Part shown: positions 3,015 to 10,729 of the stretch, in pieces | Layout: the number at the start of each line of letters is the position of its first letter | How positions within the stretch are numbered: the first letter of the stretch is position 1 | UHGV virus genome: UHGV-0315017 | DNA: 13,309 bases | Direction: 5' to 3' (one strand) | From: a virus | Position numbers and translations under genes: made by a program | Notes under the pieces: model-generated | What the model was told of the DNA's origin: nothing | Database searches by the model: none | The model's input: only the letters and a program-made list of their open reading frames with translations

Positions 3015-3194
3015 TTATTCTGATTCTTTGGCCTTGCGGCGCTGGCGGCGTTTGATCTCGCCTTCAAGTGCCGAAACGATAAATTGCCCTGTACTTTCGC
3101 CATCTTCCTTTAAATTTTCTACAGCATCAGCTATTGCGTGAGGTACTCGAGCCTCAAGCTTTTTGGATTTTGCATTAACTGCTTTTGTTGCCAT
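3015..3194 (-). CDS. Ribbon-helix-helix (CopG/Arc-like) DNA-binding protein, candidate island repressor
   Basis: Internal start MATKAVNAKSKKLEARVPHAIADAVENLKEDGESTGQFIVSALEGEI: basic beta-strand then two helices; GAGGAA SD 7 nt upstream of the ATG at 3194. The ORF-track 5' extension to 3323 is rejected. Confidence 0.65.
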   Translation of the reverse strand: MATKAVNAKSKKLEARVPHAIADAVENLKEDGESTGQFIVSALEGEIKRRQRRKAKESE

Positions 3195-3363
3195 ATCTGA
3201 TTTCCTCGTTATTAGGTGGCTGACAGTATACACACAAGAAAACGGAAAAACACTATTGACGTGGCTGACACCTTTATCAAGGTAATCGATGAAAAGACAA
3301 AGCCCCGCAAGTGTCGTTACCACTCGCAGGGCTTCTAACCAACAACGTAAACTAGGAGCCGTT
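3195..3363. promoter_or_regulatory. Divergent promoter region with direct repeats GTGGCTGACA (3215-3224 and 3260-3269)
   Basis: One repeat overlaps a rightward TTGACG -35-like hexamer, the other lies beside a leftward TATACT -10-like hexamer. Confidence 0.5.
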
Positions 3364-3561
3364 ATGGTTGCTGTAAATCATATACCACACCTTGTACACA
3401 CACAAACGGCCTTTGTGTGGCGTTTTCTGGCACTGAGTGCCGGAGAATCTCAAATCATCCACGTAACCGCCTGGACGGAACGCGAAGCGCGTGGCCGTTG
3501 CCCGTCCGGTTGTGTTGCAGTATTCGCCGCCCGTATTCGTCAGGGGTCACATCATGCGTAA
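3364..3561 (+). CDS. Hypothetical small protein, paralog A (65 aa)
   Basis: AGGAG SD 7 nt upstream; shares FVWRF...TEREAR...ARIRQG motifs with the product of 3848-4015. Confidence 0.5.
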   Translation: MVAVNHIPHLVHTQTAFVWRFLALSAGESQIIHVTAWTEREARGRCPSGCVAVFAARIRQGSHHA

Positions 3562-3639
3562 AAACCGCTTGCAAAAAATTATAACGGGGCTGTATGCTTC
3601 CCCCGTCGCCCACATGGCGACCGGGTTTAGCAGCCTGAA

Positions 3640-3683
3640 TACTGTAGCGGACAGCCGCTTATATTCCGATATGCGGTTTTTTT
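3640..3683 (+). terminator. Hairpin plus T-run between the two paralog genes
   Basis: AGCGGACAGCCGCT and CCGC..ATAT/ATATGCGG stems followed by TTTTTTT (3677-3683). Confidence 0.4.
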
Positions 3684-3847
3684 GTGTCCGTAAGCCTACC
3701 CATACCCGCATTATGGCGGGGCGTAACGGGGGAGCCTTTGCGCTCGCTGGTTCCTACAGTGCCAGTCTGCTAACCCTGTTACGTCTCGCCACCCCGTTTA
3801 GCAGCGTAGTAGCGAGACTCCTTAAAATTACTGTAGGAGCCTTTCAC

Positions 3848-4015
3848 ATGGCTGTATCCGCACGCCCTTACTTTGTCTGGCGCTTTATGCAGTGCCAGGA
3901 AAAACAAACATCACTCTTTACCGTCACGGCAGCAACAGAACGCGAAGCCCGCGCCCAGCTGCCGCACGCACATCTGATTTTTGTCGCCCGTATTCGTCAG
4001 GGGGTAGGCTTATGA
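3848..4015 (+). CDS. Hypothetical small protein, paralog B (55 aa)
   Basis: AGGAGCC SD 9 nt upstream of ATG 3848; C-terminal 46 aa align with paralog A. The 174-aa ORF-track call from 3491 is rejected. Confidence 0.5.
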   Translation: MAVSARPYFVWRFMQCQEKQTSLFTVTAATEREARAQLPHAHLIFVARIRQGVGL

Positions 4016-4242
4016 GCCAGGAAATCACACTACAACAGGCAGCAGAACGCGCCCACCAAATCGAAGTTATTTGCGCACTGGCAGAGGATTACCCTGGCAT
4101 GATGACCGACAGCGAATCAGGGGCAATCATCGGCTTACTTAAACGCCTTAGCGGTGAGGTCTGCGTATTCCTGATCGATGAACAGGAAAGAAGAACGCTT
4201 ATTTCTAACGAAAAAAAATGCGGAGGGGTACATGTGCAATAA
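4012..4242 (+). CDS. Hypothetical protein (76 aa), translationally coupled to paralog B (ATGA overlap)
   Basis: Internal Met of ORF 3892-4242 with start overlapping the upstream stop; no recognisable motif. Confidence 0.45.
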   Translation: MSQEITLQQAAERAHQIEVICALAEDYPGMMTDSESGAIIGLLKRLSGEVCVFLIDEQERRTLISNEKKCGGVHVQ

Positions 4243-4462
4243 AACCACACCGGACGCAGCAGAAGAAGCAATGCAAATACTGATACGTGCGCTCGTTGAT
4301 GTTACCCACATGGTGGAGATTATGGAGAGAAAATCACAGTCGGAGCACGACAAAAGAAAACTTAAAACAATAAAAATAATTGCCAAAAACTCGCTGATAA
4401 AAGTTACAGACATCCTTAATGAGGACATTAAAAGAATAAGGGAGAAAATTTGTGATGCATAA
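4232..4462 (+). CDS. Hypothetical protein (76 aa) in AT-rich segment
   Basis: GGAGGGG SD 5-6 nt before ATG 4232; Lys/Ile/Glu-rich, predicted helical; composition visibly more AT-rich than flanks. Confidence 0.5.
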   Translation: MCNKTTPDAAEEAMQILIRALVDVTHMVEIMERKSQSEHDKRKLKTIKIIAKNSLIKVTDILNEDIKRIREKICDA

Positions 4463-4682
4463 AATCGATTTTGAAGTATTAATCCACTCTGAAAACGCAT
4501 TAATTAAAGCACGCGAAATGAATGCGTTGTTAATTAAATTAATTGAAGTGCCGGAAGGTGGCGAAGATCATTCATCATTAATGTTTGCCGCTGTTCAGAC
4601 ATTATTGACACCTGTTATTGATGAACTCAATAAGGCTATGGCAATTCACGAGAATAATAAAGCGCCCCACACCGGAGAATAA
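4455..4682 (+). CDS. Hypothetical protein (75 aa) in AT-rich segment, overlaps the previous gene
   Basis: GGAGAA SD 8 nt before ATG 4455; start overlaps the stop of 4232-4462. Confidence 0.5.
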   Translation: MHKIDFEVLIHSENALIKAREMNALLIKLIEVPEGGEDHSSLMFAAVQTLLTPVIDELNKAMAIHENNKAPHTGE

Positions 4683-4687
4683 AAATA

Positions 4688-4987
4688 ATGAAACTTAAAT
4701 ATTCTGGCTTAACTGCCAGTGGCAAAACTCGCACTAAATTCATGCGCGGTGATATTTACCGCGACCAGTACGGCGGCACGGTAATGATTAAGGGCGTGGA
4801 GGAACGGCGCATCACCTACCGTCGTGAAGGCTACGAATATGATTGCGTGATGCCTGTTTATCAGTTTCGGCGTGATTTTTCTCTGGTACAGGCAGCGCCC
4901 CGCAGTAAACCAACCAGCAGGGAGAAAGCACGCGCCAATATTCAGGAAATAAAAAAGATGCTTAACGTATTCAGGGGTAAAAAATGA
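4688..4987 (+). CDS. Hypothetical protein (99 aa) immediately upstream of and coupled to the primase gene
   Basis: GGAGAA SD; stop overlaps the primase start (ATGA at 4984-4987). Confidence 0.55.
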   Translation: MKLKYSGLTASGKTRTKFMRGDIYRDQYGGTVMIKGVEERRITYRREGYEYDCVMPVYQFRRDFSLVQAAPRSKPTSREKARANIQEIKKMLNVFRGKK

Positions 4988-6732
4988 AACTGGCACCGAA
5001 CGTAAAAAAACAACCACGCGGAATAAAACACAAAGACACAGAGGTAATTATTTTCGCGGGTAGTGATGCGTGGGCACATGCAAAACAGTGGCAGGAGCAG
5101 GACGGCCCCGCATCCGGCGATAATGTGCCGCCTGTGTGGCTTGGGCCAAATCAGCTTGCCGAACTTGATGCACTGAAAATTGTTCCGGATGGAAAAAAAC
5201 GCGTAAGGCTGTACCAGGCCGGAGAACTGGATTTGGTGGAGACCAAAAAGATTGGTCAGAAGCTGGCGGCGGCAGATATTCAGGACGCAAATTTTTACCA
5301 CGAAGGAATGCACGTCCAGAAGTGTGAAAACTGGCGGCGCTATCTGAATGCTGAGCGTGAAAATATTGCCGCAGGGCTTACCATGCCGGAGCAGAAAAAT
5401 ACGCAACTGGCACAAATGGCAGACAGTGAGCGCGCGCAGCTGCTTGCCGAGCGCTTTGATGGCGTTTGTGTGCATCAGGAAAGTGAAATCGTTCACGTAT
5501 GGCGCGGCGGGGTATGGTGTCCGGTCAGCACAATGGAACTTAGCCGCGAAATGGTGGCGATCTATTCAGAGCACAGGGCCACTTTCAGCAAGCGCGTAAT
5601 CAATAACGCCGTGGAAGCGTTAAAAGTTATTGCCGAACCAATGGGCGAGCCGTCCGGCGATTTGCTGCCGTTCGCCAATGGTGCGCTTGACCTGAAAACG
5701 GGGGAATTTTCCCCGCACACGCCGGAGAACTGGATCACCACGCACAACGGCATTGAGTACACGCCACCAGCACCTGGGGAGAACATCCGCGATAACGCGC
5801 CAAACTTTCATAAATGGCTTAAGCACGCAGCCGGAAAAGACCCGCGCAAGATGATGCGTATATGTGCCGCGCTGTACATGATTATGGCGAACCGGTACGA
5901 CTGGCAGATGTTTATTGAGGCCACCGGAGACGGCGGGAGCGGTAAAAGTACATTCACGCACATAGCCAGCCTTCTGGCAGGGAAACAGAACACGGTAAGC
6001 GCTGAAATGACATCGCTTGATGATGCTGGTGGACGTGCGCAGGTTGTCGGGAGTCGTCTTATCGTCCTGGCTGACCAGCCGAAATATACAGGCGAAGGAA
6101 CGGGCATCAAGAAAATCACGGGCGGTGACCCCGTGGAAATTAACCCGAAATACGAAAAGCGTTTCACGGCTGTAATCAGGGCGGTGGTGCTGGCGACCAA
6201 CAATAACCCGATGATATTCACCGAACGGGCCGGAGGTGTGGCACGTCGTCGCGTGATTTTCCGTTTCGACAATATCGTCAGTGAGGCCGAAAAAGACAGG
6301 GAGCTACCGGAAAAGATCGCGGCTGAAATCCCTGTCATTATCCGCCGATTGCTGGCGAACTTTACCGACCCTGAGAAGGCACGGGCTTTACTACTGGAAC
6401 AGCGTGACGGTGATGAAGCTCTGGCAATAAAGCAACAGACGGATCCGGTTATTGAGTTTTGCCAGTTCCTGAATTTTCTGGAGGAAGCACGCGGCCTGAT
6501 GATGGGCGGCGGTGGCGATTCAGTGAAGTACACGACCAGGAACAGCCTTTACCGCGTCTATCTGGCGTTTATGGCATACGCAGGCAGGAGCAAACCGCTA
6601 AACGTAAATGACTTTGGCAAGGCTATGAAGCCTGCCGCAAAAGTTTACGGACATGAATATATTACGCGGAAAGTTAAGGGGGTAACGCAGACTAACGCAA
6701 TAACAACAGACGAGTGCGACGCGTTTTTATAA
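4984..6732 (+). CDS. Replication initiator: primase / SF3 (D5-like) helicase, P4 alpha-like C-terminal region
   Basis: 582 aa with Walker A GDGGSGKST and downstream helicase-like motifs; size and position match the pri-rep genes of P4-like and PICI elements. Confidence 0.85.
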   Translation: MKLAPNVKKQPRGIKHKDTEVIIFAGSDAWAHAKQWQEQDGPASGDNVPPVWLGPNQLAELDALKIVPDGKKRVRLYQAGELDLVETKKIGQKLAAADIQDANFYHEGMHVQKCENWRRYLNAERENIAAGLTMPEQKNTQLAQMADSERAQLLAERFDGVCVHQESEIVHVWRGGVWCPVSTMELSREMVAIYSEHRATFSKRVINNAVEALKVIAEPMGEPSGDLLPFANGALDLKTGEFSPHTPENWITTHNGIEYTPPAPGENIRDNAPNFHKWLKHAAGKDPRKMMRICAALYMIMANRYDWQMFIEATGDGGSGKSTFTHIASLLAGKQNTVSAEMTSLDDAGGRAQVVGSRLIVLADQPKYTGEGTGIKKITGGDPVEINPKYEKRFTAVIRAVVLATNNNPMIFTERAGGVARRRVIFRFDNIVSEAEKDRELPEKIAAEIPVIIRRLLANFTDPEKARALLLEQRDGDEALAIKQQTDPVIEFCQFLNFLEEARGLMMGGGGDSVKYTTRNSLYRVYLAFMAYAGRSKPLNVNDFGKAMKPAAKVYGHEYITRKVKGVTQTNAITTDECDAFL

Positions 6733-7020: not shown

Positions 7021-7299
7021 ATGCACACTTCAGGGAAATTTAATAAATCACTCAAAAAACGCAGAGACAGAACAGAACCGAAATATCGCGCGTTAGACAT
7101 TACAGAGCACGCTTTAAAGGTGGCAATCAGAACGATAGACCGCCACGCGGGGGAAGGATACGCGAAAGCACATCCCGAACTGATAAGCGCATTCATGACC
7201 ACGACGGCGGCAAATTTTGCCACGCTGACAGAGCGGGAGATTGCCGAAGCGGAACAGGTAACAACCATCAACGTTAAAACCGGAGAGGTGGAATCATGA
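7021..7299 (+). CDS. Hypothetical protein (92 aa)
   Basis: GAGGGGG upstream of ATG; coupled to the ssb start (ATGA at 7296-7299). Confidence 0.55.
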   Translation: MHTSGKFNKSLKKRRDRTEPKYRALDITEHALKVAIRTIDRHAGEGYAKAHPELISAFMTTTAANFATLTEREIAEAEQVTTINVKTGEVES

Positions 7300-7706
7300 C
7301 AGCACAGATAGCCGCTTACGGGCGGCTAGTGGACGACCCGCAGGTAAAACAGACCAGCAAGGGCACACCGATGACGCTGGCGCGTATGGCGGTATCGTTG
7401 CCATGTAGTCAGGCGCAGGATGGGCAGGCGACGTTATGGCTATCGGTCATCGCATTTGGTAAGCAGGCCGACTTCCTGGCTAAACATCAAAAAGGCGACG
7501 TTGCCAGCGTATCCGGCACGATGCAGGTCAGCCAGTGGACCGGACAGAACGGGGAAACGCGGCAGGGTTATCAGGTTATTGCAGACAGCGTAATCAGTGC
7601 CCGTGCGGCACGTCCTGGCGGGAACAGACGCAAAACCACAGGCACACAGGGTAATCAGCCACCAGCGGGAGACGATGACCCCTACGGTGATGATATTCCG
7701 TTCTGA
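7296..7706 (+). CDS. ssb: Single-stranded DNA-binding protein (compact, 136 aa)
   Basis: OB-fold-like N-terminal region, Gly/Gln/Pro-rich linker and acidic C-terminal tail DDDPYGDDIPF matching the conserved SSB tail (...DDDIPF). Confidence 0.85.
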   Translation: MTAQIAAYGRLVDDPQVKQTSKGTPMTLARMAVSLPCSQAQDGQATLWLSVIAFGKQADFLAKHQKGDVASVSGTMQVSQWTGQNGETRQGYQVIADSVISARAARPGGNRRKTTGTQGNQPPAGDDDPYGDDIPF

Positions 7707-7943: not shown

Positions 7944-9206
7944 ATGGCTGAAGAGAAAAAAGGCGGTGTTTCGGTGTACATAAGCCCCGACATCGTGAAG
8001 GCGCTCAAGGAACGCCACCAGCAGAACGTAAAAGCAGGCATTGCGGCAGGACTTGACCCGCTGGCGATGGTTGAGCCGTCAACAGGCTGGCAGGTACGCG
8101 CCTATTTACGCGCGGCGCTGGGTATGAATCAGGTTCACGGGGGGGGAATAATGACAGTAAAAGCAATGGCACTTAACACTAACCAGCTTTTTGCGTACCT
8201 GAATCGCGAGGATATTGCGGAATTTAAATTCAGTCCGCTGTTTACCACGCTGTTTTTCCCGAACGTGGCGACATTCAGCACGCAAAACATCATGCTGGAT
8301 ACCCTGGACATTGAAGAAGTCACCATGTCGGCGTTTTGTTCGCCTATGGTGGGTAGCCAGGTTCAGCGCGATAAAGGGTACGAAACCAGCACAATCAAAC
8401 CTGGCTACATGAAGCCAAAGCACGAAATCGATCCAACGAAAACCATCATGCGCATGGCTGGAGAAGATCCGGCACAGCTTAACGACCCTACCTATCGCCG
8501 TATGCGCCTGATTACTGGCAATATGCGCCGCCAGATAAACGCCATAAAAGCGCGCGTGGAATGGCTGGCGGTAAATGCGGTAACGACCGGAAAAAACATC
8601 ATTGAGGGCGAAGGCATAGAGCGCTATGAAATCGACTGGAAGATACCGGAAAAAAACATCATAGAGCAGGCCGACGGTAAAAAATGGTCAGAGCAGGACA
8701 AAGAAATCCACGATCCAATCTATGATATCGAACTATACGCCGATCAGGCAGGTTGCCCCGCCAACGTCATGATTATGGGCGCTGAGGTATGGCGAACGTT
8801 ACGCAGCTTTAAAAAATTCCGTGAGCTGTACGATCTTTCCCGTGGTTCAGAGTCCGCCGCAGAGCTGGCATGTAAAAACCTGGGCGAAGTGGTGAGCTTT
8901 AAAGGCTATCTGGGCGATATTGCCCTTATCGTCTATTCCGGCAAATACGCCGACAGTGACGGCAGAGAAAAATATTTCCTTGAGCCTGATTTGCTTGTCC
9001 TGGGCAACACCAACAATAAAGGGCTGGTGGCCTATGGTGCGATTATGGATCAGGACGCAGTAAGAACGGGGGCAACGCAAAACATGTACTACCCGAAAAA
9101 CTGGATTGAGGACGGAGATCCGGCGATTGAGTACGTGCAGACACACAGTGCACCGCAGCCGGTACCGGCAGTTATTCGCAAATTTGTTACCGTCAAAATT
9201 GGTTAA
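7944..9206 (+). CDS. Major capsid protein, lambda gpE-like, with about 70-aa N-terminal extension
   Basis: Long blocks shared with lambda gpE as recalled: KFSPLF..LFF, PGYMKPKHE, EDPAQLNDPTYRRMR, SFKGYLGDIALIVYSGKY, LVLGNT, YPKNW..GDPA. AGAGGA SD before ATG 7944. Confidence 0.88.
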   Translation: MAEEKKGGVSVYISPDIVKALKERHQQNVKAGIAAGLDPLAMVEPSTGWQVRAYLRAALGMNQVHGGGIMTVKAMALNTNQLFAYLNREDIAEFKFSPLFTTLFFPNVATFSTQNIMLDTLDIEEVTMSAFCSPMVGSQVQRDKGYETSTIKPGYMKPKHEIDPTKTIMRMAGEDPAQLNDPTYRRMRLITGNMRRQINAIKARVEWLAVNAVTTGKNIIEGEGIERYEIDWKIPEKNIIEQADGKKWSEQDKEIHDPIYDIELYADQAGCPANVMIMGAEVWRTLRSFKKFRELYDLSRGSESAAELACKNLGEVVSFKGYLGDIALIVYSGKYADSDGREKYFLEPDLLVLGNTNNKGLVAYGAIMDQDAVRTGATQNMYYPKNWIEDGDPAIEYVQTHSAPQPVPAVIRKFVTVKIG

Positions 9207-9217
9207 CGGGGGATTCT

Positions 9218-9553
9218 ATGGACACTCCATACATTGAGTTATTTGCAGGCAGTCAGCAGGTCGCCACGACGCTGGTACATTTTGCCGCTGATGCTGGCTT
9301 TATTCAGGAATTTACCCCGCTGATGCTGGCGGACAATGGCGAGTTTAAGCCGTGGGATGGTAAGGAATCTGGCAAGGCTGTTTATCTGACCTCGTACCCT
9401 GTGGACACGTCAAAGCAGAAATCAGCACAGTGTTACAAGACGGGGATATTCAATATTGCCGCCGTTAACTGGCCTGAGAGCGTCGACACCGATGCGAAAA
9501 AATGCGCCGCCTTTGCGGGTTCCGGCGTATCCGTTCAGCCGCTGGCCCGATAA
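9218..9553 (+). CDS. Head decoration protein, lambda gpD-like
   Basis: 111 aa; TPLML, WDG, YKTGIF, WPE and KK.AAFAG blocks match lambda gpD (110 aa) as recalled; GGGGG SD. Confidence 0.85.
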   Translation: MDTPYIELFAGSQQVATTLVHFAADAGFIQEFTPLMLADNGEFKPWDGKESGKAVYLTSYPVDTSKQKSAQCYKTGIFNIAAVNWPESVDTDAKKCAAFAGSGVSVQPLAR

Positions 9554-10186: not shown

Positions 10187-10729
10187 ATGAAATCGCACCT
10201 GATGAACAAAAAAAACATGGCGAAAAGCTGCCGTGTAAGTGCGACAGCGTTCGACAAGTGGGGAGTGACTCCCGTTGAACGTAAAGGCCGTGAGGCGTTT
10301 TACGATGTTGCCAGCGTGATAGACAATAGGGTTAACAATGCAATTAGCCAGCTTACAAACGACAAAGGCGATATTGATGATGATGAACTCTTACGAGTCA
10401 GGATCAGATTACTGACAGCACAGGCGGAGGCGCAGGAACTTAAAAACGAGCGCGATCGCGGTGACGTGATTGATACTGAGTTTTGCCTGTACGCGCTTTC
10501 AAAGCTGGCGAGTCAGATTTCATCAATCATGGACAGCCTCCCGCTTACTATGCAAAGGAGCTTCCCACAGATTACCCCCGCCATGCTGGATAGGCTTAAA
10601 AGGGAAGTGGTTAAAGCCTGTAATGCCAGTGCCAGAGTTGCCGACAACCTCCCACAGATACTGGCTGATTACTTGAAAGAAACAACCGGAAACGTACCGG
10701 AAAAGTTGCTACAGAAGAAAGGCGAGTAA
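10187..10729 (+). CDS. Terminase small subunit, lambda Nu1-like
   Basis: 180 aa (Nu1 is 181); N-terminal HTH region and central block LTAQAEAQELKNERDRGDVIDTEFCLYALSKLASQISSIMDSLPLTMQRSFP align with lambda Nu1 (LTRAQADAQELKNARDSAEVVETAFCTFVLSRIAGEIASILDGLPLSVQRRFP) as recalled. Confidence 0.85.
   Translation: MKSHLMNKKNMAKSCRVSATAFDKWGVTPVERKGREAFYDVASVIDNRVNNAISQLTNDKGDIDDDELLRVRIRLLTAQAEAQELKNERDRGDVIDTEFCLYALSKLASQISSIMDSLPLTMQRSFPQITPAMLDRLKREVVKACNASARVADNLPQILADYLKETTGNVPEKLLQKKGE

What the first reader, a model, noticed from the sequence alone, without database searches (positions are those of the whole stretch)
3364..4015. Two diverged paralogous small genes separated by a structured spacer
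Products of 3364-3561 and 3848-4015 share FVWRF, TEREAR and ARIRQG blocks, while the DNA has diverged at many codon positions, which favours real protein-coding paralogs. The 290-bp spacer between them contains a hairpin plus T7 terminator and three copies of GTTTAGCAG or its complement (about 3636, 3770 and 3795). That layout could be an attenuator or small-RNA element controlling read-through into the second paralog and the downstream operon, loosely analogous to RNA-based immunity in P4.
Basis: partly seen in the sequence, partly recalled or inferred. Interest (0 to 1): 0.5.

Follow-up and report, generated by a model that had tools for sequence, protein, structure and literature searches.

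The report
Antisense-RNA immunity cassette in a phage satellite
The "structured spacer" between the two small genes encodes a well-known type of phage regulatory RNA (the C4/CI antisense RNA of phages P1, P7 and P4), together with its two target sites. It most likely keeps this E. coli phage-satellite island silent, so the feature is real and neatly organised but of a known kind.

Summary
ORFs 3364-3561 and 3848-4015 are true paralogs (45% identity). Both belong to the Icd-like cell-division-inhibitor family (NF033153).

The spacer is not anonymous. Rfam places a C4 antisense RNA at 3709-3796 (71.5 bits, gathering score 45). About 190 bp are roughly 80% identical to the immI region of P1 and P7.

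A second trio, the a sites, was missed: ACTGTAG at 3641-3647, its complement in the C4 loop at 3749-3760, and ACTGTAGGAGCC at 3830-3841. The last one covers the ribosome-binding site of the second paralog.

Across related E. coli islands the a sites and b sites change together at all three places. There are at least 10 a codes and 2 b codes, with 98-99% pairing. This strongly supports antisense pairing.

An ORF from 3554 to 4015 reads through the RNA gene, in frame with the second paralog. Its ATG overlaps the stop codon of the first paralog. This is the eta/kil layout of P4.

The system is a new member of a known kind, and Rfam C4/isrK hits in Gram-negative PICIs have already been published.

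The parts
3364..3561 (+). icd1: upstream Icd-like paralog (65 aa). Its Shine-Dalgarno sequence AGGAG is at 3354-3358. It is not a C4 target.
   Evidence: NF033153 E 2.6e-17. RefSeq annotates the same ORF in the sister island L001. Its ribosome-binding site does not change when the a' loop changes. It belongs to a clade distinct from icd2, at 35-44% identity.
3554..4015 (+). Long 'eta-like' ORF (153 aa). It reads through the leader and the C4 gene, in frame with icd2. Its ATG at 3554-3556 overlaps the icd1 stop at 3559-3561 (ATGCGTAA).
   Evidence: There are 0 stops in this frame against 7 and 6 in the other two, and only 0.6% of 5000 dinucleotide shuffles stay open. The ATGNNTAA junction lies exactly 294 nt upstream of the icd2 ATG in 30 of 31 complete related loci. 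PGAP calls this ORF in L001, L104, L105, L107 and L109. The frame is closed in P1, P7 and L108.
3569..3598 (+). Promoter-like site internal to the long ORF: TTGCAA (3569-3574), an 18-nt spacer, then TATGCT (3593-3598). The predicted transcription start is about 3605.
   Evidence: It aligns with TTGACC-17-TATAGT upstream of a1b1 in P7 (read by eye). In the -10 hexamer, T, A, T and the final T are invariant in 9 islands. It scores 8 of 12, below the scan's threshold.
3605..3683 (+). a1b1 / IsrK-type leader. It has hairpin 3605-3621, a hairpin at 3622-3637 presenting b1 in its loop, single-stranded a1, and then the terminator-like hairpin with U7 (3653-3683).
   Evidence: Rfam c4-a1b1 RF03163 at 3592-3641: 45.5 bits (gathering score 46.7), E 3.4e-10. 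Rfam isrK RF01394 at 3605-3683: 35.7 bits (gathering score 50), E 5.9e-6. P4 has the same pair of matches.
3625..3633 (+). b1 site, GTTTAGCAG.
   Evidence: Exact match. It co-changes with b' and b2 (TTAGCAG versus TTGACAG alleles).
3641..3647 (+). a1 site, ACTGTAG.
   Evidence: Complement of C4 loop positions 3754-3760. It co-varies with that loop in 9 of 9 islands.
3715..3793 (+). Predicted mature C4 antisense RNA, about 79 nt (Rfam match 3709-3796). It contains the a' loop (3749-3760), the b' segment (3767-3775) and a GCCACC 3' tail.
   Evidence: RF01695: 71.5 bits, gathering score 45, E 1.2e-12. The ends are transferred from the c4 misc_RNA annotated in P7. Fold energy is -44.9 kcal/mol, z -5.4.
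3796..3804 (+). b2 site, GTTTAGCAG, 3 nt after the predicted C4 3' end.
3830..3841 (+). a2 site, ACTGTAGGAGCC. It can form 12 pairs with the C4 loop (3749-3760). It contains the icd2 Shine-Dalgarno sequence AGGAG (3835-3839).
   Evidence: Inverted repeat I4. Pairing is 99.4% across 9 islands, with 33 double-change cells.
3848..4015 (+). icd2: downstream Icd-like paralog (55 aa). It is nested in the long ORF, occupies the position of P1/P7 icd, and corresponds to P4 kil.
   Evidence: NF033153 E 2.6e-15. It is 43% identical to P7 Icd in a pairwise comparison over aligned residues. It occupies the same position relative to c4. The C-terminus of P4 Eta (Kil) matches the same family at E 1.4e-20.
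4012..4242 (+). First gene after icd2 (76 aa, function unknown). Its ATG at 4012-4014 overlaps the icd2 stop at 4013-4015 (ATGA). It heads the operon that runs to the primase gene (4984-6732).
   Evidence: Sequence, ORF list, phrog_1478 and primase phrog_864.

Best explanation
The region is the RNA-based immunity module of a phage-satellite island (PICI-like, inserted next to tRNA-Pro). It is built like the immunity region of satellite phage P4, and its RNA part is closest in sequence to the immI region of phages P1 and P7.

**Quiescent state.**
1. A weak internal promoter (about 3569-3598) makes a transcript that starts near 3605.
2. The transcript carries the b1 and a1 sites, a terminator-like hairpin with U7 (to 3683), and then the C4 RNA (about 3715-3793).
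3. C4 is cut out of this transcript. In P1/P7 RNase P does this.
4. C4's hairpin loop (a') and adjacent single strand (b') pair with b2 and a2 (3796-3841). This covers the Shine-Dalgarno sequence of icd2.
5. Without icd2 translation, the translationally coupled downstream operon stays off. That operon comprises small ORFs and the primase. In P1 and P4 the block works through Rho-dependent termination.
6. Pairing of C4 with b1/a1 is expected to favour early termination at the U7 hairpin, as seqA does in P4.

**Induced state.** Transcripts that start upstream of icd1 are translated through icd1. Ribosomes then restart at ATG 3554 (ATGCGTAA overlap). They translate the long ORF straight across the leader, the C4 gene and the target sites. 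This would make those transcripts insensitive to the RNA, as translation of P4 eta does.

**Shown here.** The families; the complementarities and their covariation; the nested, coupled ORF layout and its conservation.

**Inferred from P1, P7 and P4 experiments.** RNA processing, translational block, Rho polarity and the translation-dependent bypass.
For: **RNA identity**
- C4 family match above the gathering score.
- a1b1 and isrK leader matches just below their gathering scores, with the same trio found in P4 itself.
- Window 3617-3806 is about 80% identical to P1, P7, SJ46, RCS47 and D6. P7 annotates c4, icd and ant there.

**Base pairing**
- In 9 E. coli islands, C4 against b2/a2 is 99.4% paired, with 33 cells changed on both sides. 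No shuffle out of 500 reaches this, and slid controls stay at or below 50%.
- b1/a1 against C4 is 98.4% paired with 31 such cells.
- Every island has its own a code. There are two b alleles.
- The same three-way match holds in P1, P7, Pseudomonas, Acinetobacter and Neisseriaceae loci, and in 32 PICI-type loci.
- Cognate duplexes are on average about 9-10 kcal/mol better than non-cognate ones (a rough measure).
- a2 contains the icd2 Shine-Dalgarno sequence.

**ORF layout**
- The long frame is open (0.6% of shuffles by chance) and is conserved with the ATGNNTAA junction.
- Indels in long-ORF loci are either multiples of three or +1/-1 pairs compensated within about 21 nt.
- The same DNA in P1 and P7 has stops in that frame.
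- P4 Eta/Kil is Icd-like. P4 carries CI and seqA inside eta.
- The P4 mechanism is summarised in PMC10111431.

**Downstream coupling**
- ATGA overlap at 4012-4015.
Against: - No expression data exist for this island. Processing, the translational block, Rho dependence and the bypass are all inferred.
- The internal promoter matches only 8 of 12 consensus positions.
- The a1b1 and isrK matches are below Rfam's gathering scores.
- The related islands used for the ORF-conservation count are close relatives, so the 30 of 31 loci are not independent. One locus (L139) has a stop.
- The long ORF shows no BLASTP similarity to P4 Eta.
- The promoter upstream of icd1 looks damaged in this window. Compared with L001, 25 bp are missing, including L001's TAATAT -10. 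The bypass route may therefore be weak or differently driven here.
- Every transcript that carries the targets also carries C4, so how induction outruns the RNA is not settled.
Confidence: 0.85

Rival explanations
1. The spacer is simply protein-coding. A single 153-174 aa 'Icd-like' protein (as PGAP annotates) is made from 3491/3554-4015, and the repeats and hairpins have no RNA function.
For: The frame is open and is called as a CDS in several RefSeq genomes. Openness is unlikely by chance.
Against: - The same DNA matches the C4 covariance model at 71.5 bits.
- It is about 80% identical to the non-coding c4 region of P1 and P7, where the frame is closed.
- Variation among islands is confined to three short sites that always stay mutually complementary. 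Selection on a protein cannot explain this.
- The N-terminal 98 residues match no family.
Confidence: 0.03
2. The cassette is an inert relic, picked up by recombination with a P1-like phage-plasmid and no longer regulating anything. The two icd genes are expressed independently of it.
For: There is high DNA identity to P1/P7 immI. Here the cassette controls no antirepressor, unlike in P1. The internal promoter is weak.
Against: - A relic would not keep three sites complementary through at least 10 different a codes and 2 b alleles, in otherwise near-identical islands.
- C4 stems, the GCCACC tail, the U7 run and the TATnnT -10 are invariant.
- The same layout occurs in functional P4.
Confidence: 0.05
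3. The C4 RNA mainly acts in trans on another element. It might silence the icd/ant operon of a P1-like or other helper phage, or of competing satellites, rather than regulating its own operon.
For: b' is identical to that of P1 and P7. Antisense immunity RNAs act in trans by nature. Hypervariable a codes suggest conflict between elements.
Against: - The a' loop differs from those of P1 and P7.
- A scan of 2.9 million viral contigs for this b2...a2 code found only copies of the same island family.
- The cognate targets sit in cis on both sides of the gene.
Confidence: 0.07

Closest known systems
Satellite phage P4 immunity region (PLE - seqA - cI/CI RNA - seqC - kil nested in eta; left operon ending in the alpha primase)
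   Same: - A C4-family RNA preceded by an a1b1/IsrK-type leader with a terminator hairpin. All of this lies inside a long ORF whose C-terminal nested gene is Icd-like (P4 Kil, 65 aa; here icd2, 55 aa).
- The long ORF starts by overlapping the end of the upstream gene.
- A primase operon lies downstream.
- (mechanism as summarised in PMC10111431.)
   Different: - The gene coupled upstream is a second Icd-like paralog, not the vis/alpA homolog.
- The long ORF has no detectable sequence similarity to P4 Eta.
- The RNA sequence is much closer to P1/P7 than to P4.
- The island is PICI-like (AlpA, major head protein, decoration protein, small terminase subunit), not P4-like (no sid, psu or delta).
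Phage P1/P7 immI operon (P51 - a1 b1 - c4 - b2 a2 - icd - ant1/2)
   Same: - About 80% DNA identity from the promoter-proximal leader through b2.
- The same order and spacing of b1, a1, hairpin/T-run, c4, b2 and a2.
- a2 lies over the ribosome-binding site of an Icd-family gene, whose stop overlaps the next start codon.
- The a-site differences are of the same kind as the a-site differences seen between P1 and P7 in the alignment.
   Different: - There is no antirepressor and no C1 operator.
- The controlled genes are satellite replication genes.
- An extra icd paralog and a through-reading ORF are present here. P1 and P7 lack both.
Salmonella Gifsy-1 IsrK - STnc1160 - orf45 - anrP locus
   Same: A leader RNA ending at a Rho-independent terminator (IsrK; sub-threshold Rfam match at 3605-3683) is followed by a processed C4-like RNA and a small ORF that gates a downstream gene (PMC4825925).
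   Different: The isrK match is weak (35.7 bits against a gathering score of 50). In Gifsy-1, IsrK activates translation of orf45/anrP. There is no evidence for such activation here.

Membership tests
Rfam RF01695 C4 antisense RNA (P1/P7 c4, P4 CI) | Match to the covariance model at or above the curated gathering score (45 bits), full length. | tested here: met
   3709-3796 on the + strand: 71.5 bits, E 1.2e-12, model positions 1-87 of 87. P4 CI scores 74.9 in the same test.
Rfam RF01695 C4 antisense RNA (P1/P7 c4, P4 CI) | Two exposed segments (a' and b') complementary to sites on both sides of the gene. | tested here: met
   Inverted repeats I2 and I4. Covariation with both target sets.
Rfam RF01695 C4 antisense RNA (P1/P7 c4, P4 CI) | A stable RNA of about 77 nt is released from a longer transcript (by RNase P at the 5' end). 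| not testable with these tools
   Only the tRNA-like closing stem and the GCCACC tail are seen; both are conserved.
Rfam RF03163 c4-a1b1 / RF01394 isrK leader | Match at the gathering score. | tested here: inconclusive
   c4-a1b1 scores 45.5 against a gathering score of 46.7 (E 3.4e-10). isrK scores 35.7 against 50 (E 5.9e-6). P4's own c4-a1b1 match is also just below, at 44.1.
NCBIfam NF033153 Icd-like host cell division inhibitor | HMM score above the curated cut-off (25 bits). | tested here: met
   icd1 scores 62.6 bits and icd2 scores 56.2 bits. P7 Icd scores 52.7 and the P4 Eta C-terminus 73.1.
NCBIfam NF033153 Icd-like host cell division inhibitor | Inhibits cell division by acting on FtsZ (shown for P1 Icd). 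| not testable with these tools
   Known only for P1 Icd (PMC11897509, abstract).
P4-type immunity (eta/kil/CI) | A short gene (kil) forms the terminal part of a longer ORF (eta) that begins upstream of the constitutive promoter and spans the RNA gene. | tested here: met
   3554-4015 contains 3848-4015 in frame. The promoter-like site at 3569-3598 and C4 lie inside it.
P4-type immunity (eta/kil/CI) | [quoted passage not shown] | tested here: met
   An ATGNNTAA overlap with the icd1 stop is conserved in three different junction sequences. Coupling itself is inferred from the overlap.
P4-type immunity (eta/kil/CI) | Constitutive promoter internal to the long ORF. | tested here: inconclusive
   TTGCAA-18-TATGCT matches 8 of 12 consensus positions and was missed by the scan. 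TATnnT is invariant, and the site aligns with the P7 promoter-like site.
P4-type immunity (eta/kil/CI) | Rho-dependent terminator (timm) within kil, suppressed by translation. | not testable with these tools
   No sequence signature is available.
P1/P7 immI operon | The gene controlled through icd is the antirepressor ant1/2. | tested here: not met
   The gene after icd2 is a 76-aa protein of unknown function (phrog_1478), followed by small ORFs and a primase. The cassette works like immI but is not an immI operon.

The most novel reading that the evidence does not exclude
PICI-type satellites of E. coli, usually described as lacking a repressor and being switched on through AlpA, carry a P4-style RNA immunity switch.

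- Its specificity would be a modular two-part code (at least 10 a variants and 2 b variants). The parts are reassorted among near-identical islands and always rewritten at three sites at once. This would define satellite 'immunity groups' under diversifying selection.
- The concerted three-site change might be generated by template switching between the inverted a1/a'/a2 copies.
- The extra icd1 paralog would serve as the translational on-ramp that lets induced transcripts override the RNA.
Probability: 0.4. Interest if true: 0.5.

Novelty: new member of a known kind. Interest (0 to 1): 0.3.

Why it matters
**Annotation.** RefSeq currently describes the spacer only as part of a long 'Icd-like' CDS, with no RNA gene. 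This work gives it a concrete annotation.

**Control of the island.** This family of E. coli satellite islands carries a complete c4/CI-type antisense switch in front of its replication genes. That bears on how such islands stay silent and how they are induced.

**Natural test of specificity.** The related islands offer a clean series. Sequences are nearly identical and differ almost only in matched triplets of 5-7 nt sites. This would be a ready-made system for testing antisense specificity and exclusion between satellites.

**Limits.** None of this changes the known principle, established for P1, P7 and P4 in the 1990s. Rfam C4/isrK hits in Gram-negative PICIs have already been reported (PMC10111431).

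Tried and rejected
- **tblastn of icd2 against 50,697 phage records** found nothing at E 1e-3. The query is too short and divergent. The link to P1/P7 came from DNA and from the HMM.
- **Exact 16-mer scan of the species-genome collection** returned 99 loci, about half of them chance hits. Only those with a b1 site within 170 nt were used.
- **Is icd1 also a C4 target?** Rejected. Its ribosome-binding site resembles a2 in this window, but it is unchanged in L001, whose a' loop differs, and it is unrelated in L103-L106.
- **Does a helper phage share this a/b code?** The scan of viral contigs found only the same island family, plus chance hits in unrelated genes.
- **Protein similarity between the long ORF and P4 Eta:** none by BLASTP, although it is 61% identical to the long ORF of a P4-like E. 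coli element.
- **Simple promoter/terminator scan:** it flagged neither the internal promoter nor the U7 hairpin. Both rest on alignment and Rfam evidence instead.
- **3560-3568 / 3673-3681 complementarity** (a possible anti-terminator) and the **3783-3792 / 3809-3818 hairpin** were noted but not pursued far enough to claim a role.
- **Original P1 and P4 papers** (PMC523184, PMC94026, PMC176756) are not held. P4 details are taken from the summary in PMC10111431. Details on RNase P, Rho and the 65-aa Kil come partly from my own knowledge of Citron and Schuster 1990, Biere et al. 1992, Hartmann et al. 1995 and Forti et al. 1999.

Full report
**Setting**

The window is an E. coli chromosomal island inserted next to tRNA-Pro(GGG) at 406-482. 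Its genes are as follows.

| Coordinates | Feature |
|---|---|
| 673-1932 | integrase |
| 2429-2635 | weak AlpA-family match |
| 3015-3197, minus strand | divergent YlcI/YnfO gene |
| 3364-4015 | the region in question |
| 4012-4987 | chain of small ORFs |
| 4984-6732 | primase |
| 7296-7706 | SSB |
| 7944-9206 | major head protein |
| 9218-9553 | head decoration protein |
| 10187-10729 | small terminase subunit |

This is the layout of a Gram-negative phage-inducible chromosomal island (PICI). An identical copy of the spacer occurs in E. coli EH41.

**Checking the observation**

The two ORFs are real paralogs.
- They share 45% identity over 51 residues, E 3e-13.
- Both match NCBIfam NF033153 'host cell division inhibitor Icd-like' well above its cut-off.
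- RefSeq names both in this way in more than a thousand E. coli genomes.
- No third copy exists in the window.

- GTTTAGCAG is exact at 3625-3633 and at 3796-3804.
- Its complement, with one mismatch, lies at 3767-3775.
- Counted over the whole window this 9-mer is not significantly enriched. The motif alone proves little.

The hairpin and T7 run are present at 3653-3683.

**What the spacer is**

Rfam places a full-length C4 antisense RNA at 3709-3796: 71.5 bits against a gathering score of 45, E 1.2e-12.

A more permissive scan adds two matches upstream:
- the curated 'a1, b1 targets of C4' family at 3592-3641 (45.5 bits against a gathering score of 46.7);
- isrK at 3605-3683 (35.7 bits against 50).

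Window 3617-3806 is about 80% identical in DNA to P1, P7, SJ46, RCS47 and D6, and to hundreds of P1-like plasmids. In the P7 record this stretch is annotated as the c4 antisense RNA, followed by icd and ant1/2. Transferring the P7 ends through the alignment gives a mature RNA of about 3715-3793. That segment folds into the family structure at -44.9 kcal/mol, z -5.4.

icd2 sits exactly where P1/P7 icd sits. The multiple alignment gives 35% identity between P7 Icd and icd1. A pairwise comparison over aligned residues gives 43% between P7 Icd and icd2.

**Evidence that the RNA pairs with the flanking sites**

In the alignment with P1 and P7, the three genomes differ in the C4 hairpin loop. They show matching differences at a1 and a2:

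| Genome | a code |
|---|---|
| window | ACTGTAG |
| P1 | ACTTACG |
| P7 | GATTGTG |

I then aligned nine E. coli islands: the window, L001 and L103-L109.
- Each has its own a code, changed coherently at a1, a' and a2.
- There are two b alleles (TTAGCAG and TTGACAG), changed coherently at b1, b' and b2.
- Almost everything else is invariant.

| Pairing tested | Cells paired | Cells changed on both sides | Shuffles reaching this | Slid controls |
|---|---|---|---|---|
| C4 with b2/a2 | 99.4% | 33 | 0 of 500 | at or below 50% |
| b1/a1 with C4 | 98.4% | 31 | 0 of 500 | below 45% |

The same three-way match is seen in loci from Pseudomonas, Acinetobacter, Neisseriaceae and others. In 32 PICI-type loci the a and b alleles occur in different combinations. 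Cognate duplexes are on average about 9-10 kcal/mol more stable than non-cognate ones, by a crude duplex calculation.

The a2 site includes AGGAG at 3835-3839, the Shine-Dalgarno sequence of icd2. The icd2 stop overlaps the next start codon (ATGA at 4012-4015).

The ribosome-binding site of icd1 does not follow the a' loop, so icd1 is not a target.

**The long ORF**

It does not.

- From ATG 3554, which overlaps the icd1 stop as ATGCGTAA, an ORF runs through the leader, C4 and the target sites. It continues in frame into icd2.
- The 98 codons before icd2 contain no stop. The other two frames have 7 and 6.
- Only 0.6% of dinucleotide shuffles are open.
- The ATG lies exactly 294 nt before the icd2 ATG, with an ATGNNTAA junction, in 30 of 31 complete related loci. 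This includes three different junction sequences.
- Indels in loci that have the long ORF are either multiples of three or +1/-1 pairs within about 21 nt. L108, which lacks the ORF, has scattered single-base indels.
- P1, P7 and the loci from other genera have no open frame that runs from upstream of the b1 site through to icd.

P4 has the same arrangement. The isrK/a1b1 matches and CI (C4, 74.9 bits) lie inside a 214-codon ORF that starts at the end of the vis gene. The last 65 residues of that ORF are Icd-like (E 1.4e-20).

PMC10111431 summarises the P4 mechanism:
- a constitutive promoter lies inside eta;
- its transcript is terminated early through CI and seqA, and is processed to give CI;
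- Kil is the truncated form of Eta;
[quoted passage not shown] The window has a counterpart for each sequence-level element of this scheme. This includes a promoter-like TTGCAA-18-TATGCT at 3569-3598, whose TATnnT is invariant among the islands. It aligns with TTGACC-17-TATAGT of P7.

**Most likely mechanism**

1. In the resting island, the internal promoter makes leader-plus-C4 transcripts.
2. C4 is processed out.
3. C4 pairs with b2/a2 and blocks icd2 translation, and hence the coupled replication operon.
4. C4 pairs with b1/a1 and favours stopping at the U7 hairpin.
5. On induction, transcripts from upstream of icd1 are translated through icd1 and then through the long ORF. This keeps the RNA sites and terminators occupied by ribosomes.

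The identities, complementarities and ORF layout are shown here. Processing, translational block, Rho polarity and the bypass are inferred from P1, P7 and P4.

Weak points:
- the modest promoter;
- the sub-threshold leader matches;
- the relatedness of the islands counted;
- a 25-bp deletion in this window relative to L001, which removes L001's good -10 upstream of icd1.

**Rival explanations**

- A purely coding spacer cannot explain three short sites that vary only in concert, or the homology to a non-coding phage region.
- An inert relic would not have kept complementarity through at least 10 codes.
- A mainly trans-acting role against a helper phage finds no support. No phage in 2.9 million viral contigs carries this code.

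**Comparison with what is known, and novelty**

- The C4 and c4-a1b1 motifs were described in 2010 (PMC2864571).
- That Rfam's C4 and isrK profiles hit several Gram-negative PICIs, suggesting immunity functions, was stated in 2023 (PMC10111431).
- Icd-like genes are listed as present in most P4-like and PICI elements (PMC13612085).

This locus is therefore a new member of a known kind.

Features I did not find described:
- a second, anciently diverged Icd paralog (35-44% identity to the icd2 clade) serving as the gene coupled to the through-reading ORF;
- the extent and modularity of the a/b specificity codes among near-identical islands.

**Verdict**

The feature is real. Interest is modest, at 0.3.

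Noticed in passing
window 3299-3335: A strong 15-bp hairpin lies just upstream of icd1. It is conserved with compensatory changes in related islands (L105, L106) and is followed by an invariant CTAACCA(A/C)CAACG. The scan reads it as a terminator on the minus strand, facing the YlcI promoter region. On the plus strand it would lie in the icd1 5' leader. Its role is unknown.
   Followed up: partly
window 3216-3225 and 3261-3270: GTGGCTGACA is repeated directly, 45 bp apart, in the YlcI/icd1 intergenic region, so it may be an operator. Compared with L001, the window lacks 25 bp between two GTGGCTGACAC copies. The deletion removes L001's TTGACG-17-TAATAT promoter -10. The promoter upstream of icd1 may therefore be impaired in this island.
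   Followed up: partly
window 3783-3792 / 3809-3818, and 3560-3568 / 3673-3681: Two alternative pairings were seen. (1) The 3' strand of the C4 closing stem can pair downstream instead, presenting b2 in a hairpin loop; P7 has compensating changes. (2) AAAAACCGC, just after the icd1 stop, is complementary to the 3' half of the U7 hairpin, so it may act as an anti-terminator. In the minimum-energy fold of the whole precursor, b1/a1 pairs in cis with a'/b'.
   Followed up: partly
L103 645-924, L105 477-924, L106 1344-1475: Some sister islands carry a third, partial Icd-like pseudogene between alpA and the YlcI gene. In L106 the upstream copy is a truncated icd2-type gene. This suggests repeated recombination among icd copies.
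   Followed up: no
L139 (IMG/VR), long-ORF region: This is the only one of 31 complete PICI-type loci in which the through-reading frame is interrupted (open for only 174 nt upstream of the icd2 ATG). The C4 RNA and its sites are intact.
   Followed up: no
L121, L135 versus window; L120, L129 versus L103: The same a code occurs with either b allele in otherwise near-identical islands. The two parts of the specificity code therefore reassort, or arise repeatedly. How three sites change in concert is unexplained.
   Followed up: partly
L108 (E. coli ABWA45) 1440-2788: A C4 cassette with its own a code sits in front of a short icd gene, followed directly by a tyrosine recombinase. There is no through-reading ORF. 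This looks like a different kind of element using the same RNA switch.
   Followed up: no
window 4012-4987: A chain of small ORFs runs from icd2 to the primase gene. The first (4012-4242) begins with an ATGA overlap of the icd2 stop, and in the ORF list most neighbouring ORFs in the chain, including the last one and the primase gene, overlap by a few bases. Only the icd2/4012 junction was checked in the sequence. This is consistent with one translationally coupled operon gated at icd2.
   Followed up: no
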